Sequence record: OZ335960.1
Length of the DNA stretch: 64,000 nt
Origin: a phage
Reading direction: 5' to 3' (one strand)
Position numbers and translations under genes: made by a program. Below the pieces are notes generated by a model that was not told where the DNA came from, searched no databases, and worked only from the letters and a program-made list of their open reading frames with translations. Positions 1 through 3,724 of this stretch are shown here, one piece after another (position 1 is the stretch's first letter; each line of letters begins with the position of its first letter).

Positions 1-367
1 CTTCTGAGAAGGCACCAGGAAAAAGAGCATTCAAATTAAATTGACGATTCAGCAGAGCGTCAATAGAATCACCCAATGCTGTAACAGCTACAAAATTATA
101 ATCTTCTTTTAATTTGTTAATTACACACAGGGCATCTTTATACGGAGACAAGTAACGAATAAAATCTGAACGATTGTATTTTTCAATTAGCTTGACACCG
201 AGTTCTTCATCACAATTAAAGAGTTTACCCGGAGAAATAAATTTCTCATCTTGGATCATTTTTAAAATATGTTCTAACGGAAGATTATATTTCTGAGCAA
301 AATAAGGAAGTCCTGATTGCCAGCTTAAACATACTCCATCAATATCAGTTAAAATAGTAGGCTTCAT
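1..367 (-). CDS. HAD-like hydrolase family protein, C-terminal part lies beyond the window edge
   Basis: Minus-strand ATG at 367 overlapping (ATGA) the stop of the 364-828 ORF; hand translation MKPTILTDIDGVCLSW... carries the DxDG motif I of HAD phosphatases; ORF runs off position 1. Confidence 0.5.
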   Translation of the reverse strand, partial: MKPTILTDIDGVCLSWQSGLPYFAQKYNLPLEHILKMIQDEKFISPGKLFNCDEELGVKLIEKYNRSDFIRYLSPYKDALCVINKLKEDYNFVAVTALGDSIDALLNRQFNLNALFPGAFSE

Positions 368-828
368 AGAGAGTCTCTTAATAGGTTTAACACATCAATA
401 AATTCAGCTTCGGTTAGTATTGTATCATCTTTTGTTAGACCACTAGCCATGCTGTGCTTCAAAACTTTTCCTTTCGAGGCTTGTAATGCATCACGAAAGC
501 CCTTGTTTTGGAACGCTGCTTCAAAATATGCATTTGTGTATAATTCTTTCCACGCCGGAGAGTATCTTGAAAACGGAACTCCAAGCCAAAAGAGGGTCCC
601 ACGGTCCTGAGCTCTAGCACAAGACCTTCCAGCTTGTTGGGCGGCAAGCCCGGATAACCCAAATATACGACGTTGCTGTTCAACATTTTTCACCTTGCAT
701 CCTTGGAGGAATCCTTCGAGACCTCCAAATTGAATACCATCCATAACGAAAGGCCATTGGGCGAAATTACTTAATGCGCATGATGGCCATTTAAAATTGC
801 TTCTTATCTCTAGCTCAGACATTTTCAA
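364..828 (-). CDS. NADAR (YbiA-like) domain protein
   Basis: ORF track 154 aa; motif SNF..WP..(F)..G..F...E..FQ..K resembles the NADAR/DUF1768 core; assignment from motif memory only. Confidence 0.5.
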   Translation of the reverse strand: MKMSELEIRSNFKWPSCALSNFAQWPFVMDGIQFGGLEGFLQGCKVKNVEQQRRIFGLSGLAAQQAGRSCARAQDRGTLFWLGVPFSRYSPAWKELYTNAYFEAAFQNKGFRDALQASKGKVLKHSMASGLTKDDTILTEAEFIDVLNLLRDSL

Positions 829-1021
829 TACTTATAATTTCAACATCAGCCCAATGACCATAGCAAGGAAGACGAAATTCAACTGGCCAGTTAGGGTCCT
901 TTTCTAATATAATAGACTCAACTCGTGGTTCTTCATGTTCATCAGTATATGGATTTTTATCTGTTACTTTATATGTGACCTTAATGTACTGAATTCCAAA
1001 AATCTTATTAATTATATTCAT
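815..1021 (-). CDS. hypothetical protein
   Basis: ORF track 68 aa; co-oriented with and overlapping neighbours in the early-gene array. Confidence 0.4.
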   Translation of the reverse strand: MNIINKIFGIQYIKVTYKVTDKNPYTDEHEEPRVESIILEKDPNWPVEFRLPCYGHWADVEIISIENV

Positions 1022-1215
1022 ACTAATTCCTTTAATCCGTAAATAGGAGATAATTCATCGCCCATACGAAGGTCTTCATTTCCATCTACCCAGGAAACAA
1101 TATAAGCCTCTTTTATTTGAATACCACTCCATTTAAATGGAGGTAGAACCTTAGAAATTAATCCAGGTATACCAACTCCCTTTAATTCAACAGTTTGACC
1201 TAAAAAGAATTTCAT
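1018..1215 (-). CDS. hypothetical protein
   Basis: ORF track 65 aa; 4-bp overlap with neighbouring ORFs. Confidence 0.4.
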   Translation of the reverse strand: MKFFLGQTVELKGVGIPGLISKVLPPFKWSGIQIKEAYIVSWVDGNEDLRMGDELSPIYGLKELV

Positions 1216-1502
1216 TAGAACCTCATCTGAAAACCGTGCGATTTAACATTACCGCCGCCAATATCAGAAATGTTAATTTCACGCGCAATTGAAGGGTCAA
1301 TGTCAATTTCACGATTGAGTTTAGTGATAGCTAAAGTATCGCGCCCATTTACAGTACGGAATTCTAAAGGACATACTACATTAACGTAGTTTTTAATCGA
1401 TTCGCTAGTAGGTTGCAAATGAGCAGGAAGGTCTTTAGGCGCCTTAGAGAAAACTACTTCGCAGAAGTTTTTACGAGTATCAAAATAAGTAGTCATAAAC
1501 AT
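1215..1502 (-). CDS. hypothetical protein
   Basis: ORF track 95 aa; followed upstream by a GC hairpin at 1513-1530. Confidence 0.45.
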   Translation of the reverse strand: MFMTTYFDTRKNFCEVVFSKAPKDLPAHLQPTSESIKNYVNVVCPLEFRTVNGRDTLAITKLNREIDIDPSIAREINISDIGGGNVKSHGFQMRF

Positions 1503-1543
1503 AGTATTTTCCTCAGTAAGGGGCCGAAGCCCCTTATTTTATT

Positions 1544-1909
1544 TTAAATATCAAATTCGTTAAGAACTACATCAAAGATTGCTTCAAGATGCTCAGGTTT
1601 AGCTTTGTTACTCAGAATATGACGAATCCAAGTTTTAACCAGAAGTTTACGATTGACGCCATTCCAGCAAGGATGAGTCCCTAAATCACGTTGACGGAAA
1701 TCATCATCCAGAGCGATTTTAAAAGAAGAACCTTCTTTCGTGATTGAAACCGTGATGCCATTTTCAAATCGCATATAAACGTAGTTAGGAGTCATATACT
1801 GTTCAATTTCGCATACTGATCCATTTTGATGTTTCCAAAGGCAGATAGTATCAATAGAACCTGCAATACCATTAGAAACATATTTACGTTCAAAGTTGAT
1901 GTAGTTCAT
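1544..1909 (-). CDS. hypothetical protein
   Basis: ORF track 121 aa; RBS GGAGAATAAAA before ATG; early-promoter-like element upstream. Confidence 0.5.
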   Translation of the reverse strand: MNYINFERKYVSNGIAGSIDTICLWKHQNGSVCEIEQYMTPNYVYMRFENGITVSITKEGSSFKIALDDDFRQRDLGTHPCWNGVNRKLLVKTWIRHILSNKAKPEHLEAIFDVVLNEFDI

Positions 1910-1943
1910 TTTTATTCTCCGAGATGTTTAATTGCGGTACAGG

Positions 1944-1974
1944 TATATAATATCATATCCTGTACCAAAGTAAA
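1944..1974 (-). promoter_or_regulatory. early (sigma-70) promoter-like element
   Basis: Minus strand TTTACT, 16-17 nt, TATTAT upstream of the 1544-1909 ORF. Confidence 0.4.
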
Positions 1975-1977
1975 CAA

Positions 1978-2310
1978 TTATTTTACTACTTTCCAGTGCT
2001 GCATGTCAAGTTTACCAACTTTTTTCATCTTCTCAATTAAGCGTTCGGCACGTTGGCGAGCTGTAACATAATACCATTCACCCAATTCATTTTGTTCAAT
2101 TTTTCCAACGATTACTGTATTCAATTCATAAATCCAACCAGTAAAGAAATTATGAACTTGAATTGTAAAGGTGAAATCTGTTCCCATACCTTCTGTTGTT
2201 TCTACTTCAATAATATCACCTTCAACTGCCATTAAGAACCACATAGTTTCATCATATTTACCATTGAAGCATTTAGTTTTAACTGTAGCGTTCAGATTAA
2301 TCGTTTTCAT
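1978..2310 (-). CDS. hypothetical protein
   Basis: ORF track 110 aa; RBS AAGGAGAATAAA before ATG 2310; early promoter at 2338-2366. Confidence 0.5.
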   Translation of the reverse strand: MKTINLNATVKTKCFNGKYDETMWFLMAVEGDIIEVETTEGMGTDFTFTIQVHNFFTGWIYELNTVIVGKIEQNELGEWYYVTARQRAERLIEKMKKVGKLDMQHWKVVK

Positions 2311-2337
2311 TTTATTCTCCTTTGTTTGTGTAAGATA

Positions 2338-2366
2338 ATACTATCACAAAGGAACCATACTGTAAA
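2338..2366 (-). promoter_or_regulatory. T4-type early promoter
   Basis: Minus strand GTTTACA, 17 nt, TAGTAT with an A/T-rich upstream region. Confidence 0.55.
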
Positions 2367-2389
2367 CAACTTTGTGCAATCTTTGGAAA

Positions 2390-2415
2390 ATAAAAAAGGA
2401 CTCCCGAAGGAGTCC
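2390..2415 (-). terminator. rho-independent terminator
   Basis: Minus strand GGACUCC-UUCG-GGAGUCC followed by UUUUUUAUUUU. Confidence 0.6.
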
Positions 2416-2420
2416 TCAAC

Positions 2421-2597
2421 TTATGCTTTCTGCTTACCAAAACGAGAAGCATCATCTCGAAGAACCGCACGTGCTCGGCGCATGATCTTCTCAACAGTTT
2501 GATTGATACGAGAGTTCGACCCACGCTTGTAGCCAGCGCGTTTAGAATCACCAACTTTCTTTTCAACTGCTTTCTTTGCTTTAGCTTGTTTTGCCAT
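2421..2597 (-). CDS. small lysine/arginine-rich protein
   Basis: Track ORF 2421-2639 trimmed to internal ATG at 2597 (MAKQAKAKKAVEKK...) with RBS AAGAG upstream; terminator hairpin immediately downstream. Confidence 0.45.
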   Translation of the reverse strand: MAKQAKAKKAVEKKVGDSKRAGYKRGSNSRINQTVEKIMRRARAVLRDDASRFGKQKA

Positions 2598-2992
2598 TAT
2601 AAATTCTCTTTTAAATGAAAATGCAGGACTTATTGGCATTGCCTGCGCAAGCCCTCAAGGGGAACATAGGTTTTGTATATTTACCGACAGGATAACCATA
2701 AACCCGTCAACATACCTTATAGCTCTTATCTGTTGCACACCGTTAGCTTAAAGGTTCCGGGTTCGATTTCTCGAGGATAAGATATATACTGATGGATATA
2801 TAGGCCTTGAGGCGTACTCCCGATTAGCCATCACCTCGGGGTAGCATGCACTTGCCGCTATAAAATAACATTCAAGAGGTACACCGTAAAACTGCCGGGG
2901 TCTTAAAACTATAATGATTCGCAAATCATTAATCAGACAGTTCGACGGCTCCTCGTTTTAACTTCACACTAAGGCAGTGACTCTCCAATAAA

Positions 2993-3241
2993 TTACTTCA
3001 GTGTTACCACAAAGTGACGAACTGCTTTTCGTGCAGCAGAAGCCAGTGGCTTAGCATATTTAAGTTCATCTTTTTCCTGAAGCTCAGCAGCTAATGCAGT
3101 TTGAGCAGGATTCAGATGTTTGAAATAACGCAGGATTTCAAGAGCTTCGGCTTCAACATCAATAGATGCGCCATAGTTTTCGTGACCATTATTCCATGCG
3201 TTTCGTTGCAGTTCAAGAGCGTGTTGTAATTGTTTAATCAT
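2993..3241 (-). CDS. rIII: rIII lysis-inhibition accessory protein
   Basis: 82 aa, position next to gene 31, sequence matches recalled T4 RIII (MIKQLQHALELQRNAWNNGHENYG...). Confidence 0.75.
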   Translation of the reverse strand: MIKQLQHALELQRNAWNNGHENYGASIDVEAEALEILRYFKHLNPAQTALAAELQEKDELKYAKPLASAARKAVRHFVVTLK

Positions 3242-3388
3242 TTAAAAATTCTCGTTAGAGATTAAAACTCGGTAGTCACGTTCTTCTGAATTTCATCTTC
3301 TTTCGACAGATCTCTCAGTTGTAGACTACCACATAGAATTGTTCGGTTAACTTATTATTCCGACACCCAATTCATATTATTATTTATA

Positions 3389-3724
3389 TCACTTATAAAG
3401 ACACGGAATAGCTTTATAGTGACAGGTAACGAATTTTTGTTTAATTTCTTTTGGCTGCTTAAGACCCAGAGCTACAAAAGGATGCGGAACGTTTCGAATT
3501 TGACCAACTGGAAGAGAAGTCAAATCACCAACTTCGCAGAAACCTTCAGGAACATCAGGACCAACGGAGTGAACTACACACAGTTCAGGAACTTCACCTT
3601 GAACACGTTTACCGATAATAAGTCCTGATTCTGTAACTTCTTCATCACCGGCTTGTGCAGGTTCAGAAACTAAAATAACATATTCACCGACAGCACGAAT
3701 TGGTAGCTGTTGTACTTCAGACAT
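3389..3724 (-). CDS. 31: gp31 co-chaperonin (GroES-like) for major capsid protein folding
   Basis: 111 aa, same length as T4 gp31; GroES-like glycine-rich mobile loop; MotA-box middle promoter immediately upstream. Confidence 0.85.

What the first reader, a model, noticed from the sequence alone, without database searches (positions are those of the whole stretch)
1..828. NADAR-domain protein next to a HAD-like hydrolase
The 154-aa ORF has the NADAR/YbiA-like motif pattern (SNF..WP..F ... FQ..K). NADAR domains have been reported to remove ADP-ribose from guanine in DNA and so could counter DarT-type defence toxins. It overlaps (ATGA) a HAD-motif (DIDGV) gene upstream, suggesting a coupled pair acting on nucleotide or ADP-ribose substrates.
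Basis: partly seen in the sequence, partly recalled or inferred. Interest (0 to 1): 0.5.

Follow-up and report, generated by a model that had tools for sequence, protein, structure and literature searches.

The report
T4 adfN, a known anti-DarT1 gene
This is gene 30.3 (adfN) of a T4-like coliphage, an enzyme already shown in phage T4 to strip ADP-ribose off phage DNA and defeat the bacterial DarTG1 defence; the phosphatase-like gene beside it is real but does not appear to work with it.

Summary
Window 364..822 (minus strand) encodes a 152-aa protein, or 154 aa if read from an upstream TTG. It is 148/152 identical to phage T4 gp30.3. It matches Pfam Phage_30_3 (E 6.9e-69) and folds as a NADAR/YbiA-like domain: the top three PDB matches are the three solved NADARs. 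It keeps E36, K43 and H123 and the C-terminal helix.

T4 gp30.3 has been published as AdfN. It is a guanine-ADP-ribose DNA glycohydrolase that is necessary and sufficient for resistance to DarTG1 (Nat Commun 2025; Toxins 2024; HIDEN-SEQ preprint 2025).

The neighbour (1..367, cut by the window edge) is the N-terminus of gp30.2. It is a genuine HAD-fold phosphatase-like protein with a C1 cap and unknown substrate. The proposed "coupled pair" is not supported:
- The ATGA overlap is one of six consecutive overlapping junctions in this gene string.
- Only 22 of 80 NADAR loci have the HAD gene nearby.
- The HAD gene's conserved neighbour is DNA ligase (73 of 78 loci).
- Seven phage genomes carry the two genes 50-60 kb apart.
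- Published transposon data show that 30.2 insertions are not depleted on DarTG1 (log2FC -0.12, against -7.25 for 30.3).

Low interest; already known.

The parts
364..822 (-). adfN (T4 gene 30.3): 152-aa phage-type NADAR, a DNA guanine-ADP-ribose glycohydrolase. The mechanical ORF extends to a TTG at 828 (154 aa).
   Evidence: Pfam PF08010 E 6.9e-69. 148/152 identical to T4 gp30.3. AF2 model pLDDT 94.4. Foldseek top hits are YbiA 2b3w, G. lovleyi NADAR 8bat and P. nicotianae NADAR 8bau. Function was shown for the T4 orthologue in PMC11825919.
763..771 (-). Codons for S18-N19-F20, the invariant N-terminal NADAR motif.
   Evidence: Invariant in the 44-sequence alignment A1. Aligns to the SNF of E. 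coli YbiA in the profile match.
694..717 (-). Codons E36 (717..715) to K43 (696..694): the catalytic Glu and Lys in the EGFLQGCK segment.
   Evidence: Invariant in A1. Aligns to the SEHYFQAQK of YbiA. E36A and K43A impair AdfN-T4 (PMC11825919).
454..456 (-). Codon H123: the histidine that replaces the conserved Glu/Asp of other NADARs, the hallmark of the gp30.3 clade.
   Evidence: Invariant in A1. It follows the last strand (120-122) of the model. Described for phage NADARs in PMC11125620 and PMC11543638.
367..411 (-). Codons 138-152: the C-terminal helix that is lost in the defective RB69 allele. It is intact here.
   Evidence: Helix 138-151 in the model. Full-length alignment to T4. The RB69 frameshift removes the last 15 residues and reduces activity (PMC11825919).
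364..367 (-). ATGA overlap of the adfN stop codon and the gene 30.2 start codon.
   Evidence: Sequence read on the minus strand. It is one of six consecutive 1-8 nt overlaps from 30.6 to 30.
1..367 (-). N-terminal 122 codons of gene 30.2, cut by the window edge: a HAD-superfamily phosphatase-like protein with a C1 cap. Motif I DIDGV lies at 346..332 and the motif II Thr96 at 82..80.
815..1021 (-). Gene 30.4 (68 aa, unknown function), directly upstream. Its stop overlaps the adfN start by 8 nt. It is context, not shown to be part of the mechanism.
   Evidence: ORF list and sequence. It is the only other gene significantly depleted on DarTG1 in the parts of the T4 HIDEN-SEQ table read: log2FC -1.79, adj p 0.014; unaffected on DarTG2.

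Best explanation
Window 364..822 (minus strand) is the adfN gene (gene 30.3) of a T4-like Tequatrovirus. It lies in the early-gene string 30.7-30.6-30.5-30.4-30.3-30.2-30.1-30. Its product is a small, single-domain NADAR enzyme. When a host DarT1 toxin ADP-ribosylates guanines in replicating phage DNA, AdfN cuts the N-glycosidic bond between the base and ADP-ribose. This restores normal DNA and lets replication continue, so the phage acts as if it carried its own orphan DarG1 antitoxin. Shown here: gene identity, fold, intact active-site residues (E36, K43, H123) and an intact C-terminal helix. Taken from published experiments on the 97%-identical T4 protein: the glycohydrolase activity and the DarTG1 phenotype. 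Inferred: that this allele, which differs at four non-catalytic positions (R11K, Y68C, I104F, I125M), behaves the same. The adjacent gene 30.2 encodes a HAD-type phosphatase of unknown substrate. It is a syntenic neighbour, not a functional partner in this reaction.
For: The region is 98.2% identical over 4 kb to Tequatrovirus genomes and has the T4 gene order. Pfam Phage_30_3 matches at E 6.9e-69. The protein is 148/152 identical to T4 gp30.3. E36, K43 and H123 are invariant across 44 homologues down to 35% identity. A profile of the family matches E. coli YbiA across SNF...E..Q..K at E 0.0014. The AF2 model has pLDDT 94.4, and its top three PDB hits are exactly the three solved NADAR structures. 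Published work (PMC11825919) reports the following. Deleting adfN makes T4 and T2 unable to plaque on DarTG1 hosts. Ectopic AdfN-T4 rescues RB69. Purified protein removes ADP-ribose from DNA. E36A is inactive in vitro. There is no effect on DarTG2. Independently, T4 transposon insertions in 30.3 are lost on DarTG1 (log2FC -7.25, adj p 0) and unaffected on DarTG2.
Against: Nothing was measured on this particular allele. Y68C is unusual among close relatives, though it is not at a conserved or catalytic position. No Pfam NADAR (PF08719) hit is obtained directly. AdfN-T4 does not protect uninfected E. coli from DarT1 and only weakly protects non-T-even phages. The mechanism in vivo is therefore incomplete, and an unidentified T-even factor is postulated.
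Confidence: 0.93

Rival explanations
1. One reading: NADAR and the HAD hydrolase form a translationally coupled functional pair. For example, the HAD phosphatase processes the ADP-ribose or nucleotide product released by the NADAR, or it is the unknown T-even factor that AdfN needs.
For: ATGA overlap of stop and start. The same overlap is kept in T4-like and RB69-like relatives and in one diverged locus, L016. gp30.2 is a bona fide HAD phosphatase-like protein with weak similarity to 5'(3')-deoxyribonucleotidases. Johannesman et al. postulate an unidentified T-even helper.
Against: All six junctions from 30.6 to 30 overlap by 1-8 nt, so the overlap is not specific to this pair. Only 22 of 80 loci with a gp30.3 relative have a gp30.2 relative within 6 kb. 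Only 35 of 78 loci with a gp30.2 relative have the NADAR within 5 kb, whereas 73 of 78 have DNA ligase. Seven genomes carry both genes 50-60 kb apart. In T4, insertions at 71 sites in 30.2 are not depleted on DarTG1 (log2FC -0.12, p 0.61), against -7.25 for 30.3.
Confidence: 0.05
2. The NADAR acts mainly on soluble ADP-ribose derivatives or metabolic N-glycosides. These would be immune signals, by-products of RNA repair, or riboflavin intermediates as for YbiA. DNA would not be its main substrate.
For: This was the bioinformatic prediction for phage NADARs before the experiments (PMC9503650). The closest structure by Foldseek is YbiA.
Against: DNA de-ADP-ribosylation was shown directly in vitro, and there is a DarTG1-specific loss-of-function phenotype. 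The gp30.3 clade clusters nearest the DarG1 antitoxins according to PMC11825919.
Confidence: 0.04
3. The NADAR primarily reverses or edits modifications made by the phage's own ADP-ribosyltransferases. Alt lies about 3 kb away, and T4 also has ModA and ModB.
For: alt lies just beyond gene 30 in the same early region. PMC9503650 notes that T4-like NADARs are expressed early along with the ARTs.
Against: The NADAR activity documented in the papers read is on nucleobase-linked ADP-ribose: guanine (PMC11543638) and, by one title, cytidine (PMC12945103; not read). Alt and ModA are annotated as ADP-ribosylating RNA polymerase; their target residues were not looked up here. adfN is dispensable on hosts that lack DarTG1.
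Confidence: 0.03

Closest known systems
AdfN-T4 (T4 gp30.3, anti-DarT factor NADAR; Pfam PF08010 Phage_30_3)
   Same: Same gene at the same genomic position. 152 aa, 97% identical. E36, K43 and H123 and the C-terminal helix are all present.
   Different: Four substitutions (R11K, Y68C, I104F, I125M). No record in the phage collection is identical at DNA level; the best is 98.7%.
DarG1 antitoxin (DarT1-associated BC4488-type NADAR, e.g. Geobacter lovleyi NADAR, PDB 8bat)
   Same: Same fold and the same reaction, removal of ADP-ribose from guanine in DNA (PMC11543638, PMC11825919).
   Different: It lacks the N-terminal extension of DarG1. It has His where DarG1 has Asp in the last strand. It is not encoded next to a DarT. 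It does not rescue uninfected cells from DarT1.
E. coli YbiA (PDB 2b3w), the founding NADAR/DUF1768 member
   Same: Best structural match (Foldseek E 1.1e-4, TM 0.67). Shares the SNF...E..Q..K motif.
   Different: YbiA has Glu at the third catalytic position. It is a housekeeping N-glycosidase of riboflavin intermediates and gives no DarT1 protection in vivo.
HAD superfamily, subfamily I (C1-capped) phosphatases, nearest the 5'(3')-deoxyribonucleotidases (cdN/mdN, PDB 2jao; 3bwv). This comparison is for gp30.2.
   Same: DxD, Thr, Lys and DD motifs. Rossmann-like core with a helical cap inserted after motif I. Weak profile match to 2jao, E 0.029.
   Different: No Pfam or NCBIfam model matches. 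The substrate is unknown. The T4-type proteins carry an extra aromatic/proline-rich C-terminal tail of about 70 aa.

Membership tests
NADAR superfamily (YbiA-like) | YbiA-like alpha+beta fold: a helical core flanked by two small sheets | tested here: met
   AF2 model with pLDDT 94.4. [quoted passage not shown]
NADAR superfamily (YbiA-like) | Conserved active-site Glu and Lys (PnNADAR E43 and K50) after the SNF motif | tested here: met
   E36 and K43 are invariant in 44 homologues and align to the YbiA motif. The equivalence to the PnNADAR residues is taken from PMC11825919.
NADAR superfamily (YbiA-like) | Charged catalytic residue in or after the last strand: Glu in YbiA-type, Asp in DarG1-type, His in phage-type | tested here: met
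   H123 is invariant and follows strand 120-122. Its structural equivalence to E125 or D171 is inferred from the literature, not superposed here.
NADAR superfamily (YbiA-like) | Match to the Pfam NADAR model PF08719 | tested here: not met
   No hit at E<=1. The phage clade has its own Pfam family. One homologue (P0082) carries both PF08010 and PF08719 hits. This is a database convention, not a structural criterion.
NADAR superfamily (YbiA-like) | Hydrolysis of guanine-linked ADP-ribose | not testable with these tools
   Shown for the T4 orthologue in vitro (PMC11825919; PMC11125620).
AdfN / Phage_30_3 (PF08010) | PF08010 match above the gathering score, and orthologous position between genes 30.4 and 30.2 | tested here: met
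   230.4 bits against a cut-off of 36. Synteny with T4.
AdfN / Phage_30_3 (PF08010) | Full-length protein with the C-terminal helix, i.e. not the RB69-type frameshift | tested here: met
   152 aa, aligned end to end with T4. Helix 138-151 in the model.
AdfN / Phage_30_3 (PF08010) | Required for phage growth on DarTG1 hosts | not testable with these tools
   Shown for T4 and T2 and by T4 HIDEN-SEQ. Not tested for this phage.
HAD superfamily phosphatase (gp30.2) | Motif I DxDx(T/V) and motif II Ser/Thr | tested here: met
   D8, D10, V12 and T96 are within the window fragment. D8, D10 and G11 are invariant.
HAD superfamily phosphatase (gp30.2) | Motif III Lys and motif IV DD | tested here: met
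   K132 and D152-D153 are invariant in A3. These residues lie outside the window and were seen in T4 and in homologues.
HAD superfamily phosphatase (gp30.2) | Rossmann-like HAD core with a cap domain | tested here: met
Functionally coupled NADAR-HAD gene pair | Adjacency conserved across diverged genomes | tested here: not met
   22 of 80 NADAR loci and 35 of 78 HAD loci have the partner nearby. Seven genomes have them 50-60 kb apart. The HAD gene is instead linked to DNA ligase in 73 of 78 loci.
Functionally coupled NADAR-HAD gene pair | Shared loss-of-function phenotype | tested here: not met
   Published T4 transposon data on DarTG1: 30.3 log2FC -7.25; 30.2 log2FC -0.12, p 0.61 (sheet identified).

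The most novel reading that the evidence does not exclude
The HAD phosphatase gp30.2, whose N-terminus is at window 1..367, may be a functional partner of the T4 DNA ligase rather than of AdfN. It could be a nucleotide or DNA-end phosphatase that supports nick sealing or dNMP handling. In that case adfN-30.2-30 would form a loosely linked DNA damage-reversal and repair block. Separately, the 68-aa gp30.4 (815..1021), which overlaps the adfN start, could be the unidentified T-even factor that AdfN needs, rather than merely showing a polar effect in the transposon screen.
Probability: 0.15. Interest if true: 0.45.

Novelty: already known. Interest (0 to 1): 0.1.

Why it matters
It matters little as a discovery. 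The gene, its fold, its enzymology and its counter-defence role were published in 2023-2025 for the T4 orthologue.

The practical value lies in annotation. About 650 phage genome records carry this gene. In the 12 listed records the features under the match are unnamed ('hypothetical protein' or 'Phage protein') or the record has no annotation, so it can be relabelled as adfN. An intact allele (E36, K43, H123 and the C-terminal helix) predicts resistance to DarTG1.

The negative result on the HAD neighbour narrows the search for the still-unknown T-even helper of AdfN. It also points to a conserved HAD-ligase linkage that has not been explained.

Tried and rejected
- **Direct searches without a profile.** Pfam, NCBIfam and single-sequence PDB searches for a NADAR label gave nothing beyond PF08010. 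A family profile and a structure prediction were needed.
- **PHROGs.** Both genes are labelled only 'unknown function'.
- **Pfam on full-length gp30.2.** No hit for the T4 or the AUBRB02 protein, so HAD membership rests on motifs and fold.
- **The ATGA overlap as evidence of coupling.** Rejected, because every junction from 30.6 to 30 overlaps.
- **gp30.2 as the unknown AdfN helper.** Rejected on the HIDEN-SEQ data and on gene-neighbourhood statistics.
- **The internal out-of-frame ORF 30.3' (459..686) as a conserved gene.** Its ATG is lost in AUBRB02, L003 and most RB69-like loci (one keeps the ATG but has an early stop), so it was not pursued.
- **Promoter and terminator scan of 1..3400.** Counts were no higher than in shuffled sequence, and no site lies between 30.6 and 30.2 on the minus strand.
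- **Literature search for 'gp30.2'.** No papers were found.

Full report
**What is in the sequence**

The first 4 kb of the window are 98.2% identical to Tequatrovirus (T4-like) coliphage genomes. The gene order, all on the minus strand, is that of T4: 31, rIII, 30.9 ... 30.4, 30.3, 30.2.

T4 and the nearest relative annotate the ATG at 822, giving 152 aa.

Its TGA stop (366..364) overlaps the ATG (367..365) of the next gene. That gene starts MKPTILTDIDGV and runs off the window edge after 122 codons.

The HAD gene is downstream in the direction of transcription, not upstream. Only its N-terminal 44% is in the window.

**Identity of the 152-aa protein**

- It matches Pfam PF08010 (Phage_30_3) at E 6.9e-69.
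- It is 148/152 identical to T4 gp30.3, differing at R11K, Y68C, I104F and I125M.
- There is no direct hit to the Pfam NADAR model, to NCBIfam or to any PDB sequence.

Homology to NADAR was therefore tested independently:

- An alignment of 44 homologues down to 35% identity has invariant P13, A16-L-S-N-F20, F25, E36-G-F, Q40, K43, H123 and T134-x-L-T137.
- Its profile matches E. coli YbiA across SNF...E..Q..K at E 0.0014.
- An AlphaFold2 model has mean pLDDT 94.4.
- A Foldseek search of the PDB with that model returns YbiA (2b3w, E 1.1e-4), Geobacter lovleyi NADAR (8bat) and Phytophthora NADAR with ADP-ribose (8bau) as the top three. Nothing else scores above noise.

The protein is a NADAR.

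**What is already known**

T4 gp30.3 has been published as AdfN, 'anti-DarT factor NADAR' (Johannesman et al., Nat Commun 2025, PMC11825919). That paper reports:

- Deleting the gene makes T4 and T2 unable to plaque on DarTG1 hosts.
- Ectopic expression rescues RB69, whose own allele is frameshifted and lacks the last 15 residues.
- The E36A and K43A mutants are impaired.
- Purified protein removes ADP-ribose from DarT1-modified DNA.
- The gene has no effect on DarTG2.

An earlier biochemical paper (PMC11125620) and the structural paper (PMC11543638) describe the gp30.3 clade as NADARs with His in place of the third catalytic Glu/Asp.

A T4 transposon screen (HIDEN-SEQ, bioRxiv 10.1101/2025.11.20.689424) independently finds 30.3 insertions lost on DarTG1. 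In its supplementary Data S6 the value is log2FC -7.25, adj p 0.

The window allele has E36 (717..715), K43 (696..694), H123 (456..454) and the complete C-terminal helix (411..367). It should therefore be functional. That last step is inference.

**The HAD neighbour**

The 122-aa fragment is 100% identical to the N-terminus of T4 gp30.2, which is 278 aa. No Pfam, NCBIfam or named PHROG family matches.

An alignment of 20 homologues shows the four HAD motifs:

- D8-x-D10-G
- T96-A97
- K132
- D152-D153

The helical insertion after motif I is a C1-type cap. From general knowledge of the HAD superfamily, such caps favour small-molecule substrates.

'HAD-like hydrolase' is confirmed. The substrate is unknown.

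**Are the two genes a coupled pair?**

Four lines of evidence say no.

1. The overlap is not special. The junctions 30.6/30.5, 30.5/30.4, 30.4/30.3, 30.3/30.2, 30.2/30.1 and 30.1/30 all overlap by 1-8 nt.
2. Among 80 viral contigs that encode a gp30.3 relative, only 22 have a gp30.2 relative within 6 kb. The ATGA-type abutment is confined to T4-like and RB69-like phages plus one other locus.
3. Among 78 contigs that encode a gp30.2 relative, 73 have a T4-type DNA ligase within 5 kb, and 66 of these are directly downstream. Only 35 have the NADAR within 5 kb. Seven genomes carry both genes 50-60 kb apart.
4. In T4, insertions at 71 sites in 30.2 are not depleted on DarTG1 (log2FC -0.12, p 0.61) or on DarTG2 (0.00).

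The conserved partner of the HAD gene is the ligase, not the NADAR.

**Open point**

AdfN-T4 does not protect uninfected cells and only weakly protects non-T-even phages. The authors therefore postulate an unknown T-even helper.

In the parts of the DarTG1 table that I read (genes 26 onward), the only other significant gene is 30.4, with log2FC -1.79 and adj p 0.014. It overlaps the adfN start by 8 nt. By tblastn with the window protein it was detected only at the T4-like and RB69-like loci, 14 of 80.

A polar effect on adfN is the simplest explanation. A helper role is not excluded.

**Verdict**

- The finding is real.
- The NADAR/anti-DarT interpretation is correct but already published.
- The HAD-coupling idea is not supported.
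- Novelty: already known. Interest: low.

Noticed in passing
window 1..367 (gene 30.2); loci L083-L160: The gp30.2-type HAD gene is almost always next to the T4-type DNA ligase gene. 73 of 78 viral loci have the ligase within 5 kb, and in 66 it lies directly downstream, with at most one small gene between. This linkage is much tighter than the one with the NADAR gene and is unexplained.
   Followed up: partly
window 815..1021 (-), gene 30.4: This 68-aa ORF of unknown function overlaps the adfN start by 8 nt. In the parts of the published T4 transposon table read, it is the only other gene significantly depleted on DarTG1 (log2FC -1.79, adj p 0.014). It is unaffected on DarTG2. This is either a polar effect on adfN or a candidate for the postulated helper factor.
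   Followed up: partly
window 459..686 (-), ORF 30.3': T4 annotates an internal out-of-frame ORF (75 aa) inside 30.3, and it is present here (71/75 identical). Its ATG is replaced by ATA, ACG, ATT or ATC in AUBRB02, L003 and most RB69-like relatives, although the frame stays open. One locus (L013) keeps the ATG but has a stop at codon 14. It does not look like a conserved gene.
   Followed up: yes
window 364..1502 (-) and L002 5206..6311: Six consecutive gene junctions from 30.6 to 30 overlap by 1, 4, 8, 4, 1 and 4 nt. No promoter-like or terminator-like site lies between them on the coding strand. The string is a single, tightly packed run of genes.
   Followed up: yes
window 1515..1538: A strong GC-rich hairpin (10 bp stem, GAAG loop) followed by T-runs was reported on the plus strand. 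It lies in the gap between genes 30.7 and 30.6.
   Followed up: no
L002 5478..6311 (T4 gp30.2), outside the window: T4-type gp30.2 proteins (270-284 aa) carry a C-terminal tail of about 70 aa rich in aromatic residues and proline (…PWNTTWRTPGFNPYNPYHPYQTHPFQTWNY…). This tail is absent from the roughly 200-aa homologues in most other phages.
   Followed up: no
L032/L146, L037/L135, L057/L152, L065/L106, L067/L112, L070/L099, L075/L117: Seven complete T4-like genomes from IMG/VR carry a gp30.3-type NADAR and the gp30.2-ligase pair 50-60 kb apart. The NADAR gene has therefore moved relative to the ligase region during T4-like phage evolution.
   Followed up: partly
window 364..822; 650 GenBank phage records: The gene is present at >=80% DNA identity in 650 phage records. 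In the 12 listed records the features under the match are unnamed ('hypothetical protein' or 'Phage protein') or the record has no annotation. No record is identical to this allele; the best is 98.7%.
   Followed up: yes
PMC11125620, methods: The Toxins 2024 paper lists its 'T4 phage NADAR (gp30.3)' construct as residues 1-208. This does not match the 152-aa T4 gp30.3, so the construct may be a different protein or may include extra sequence.
   Followed up: no
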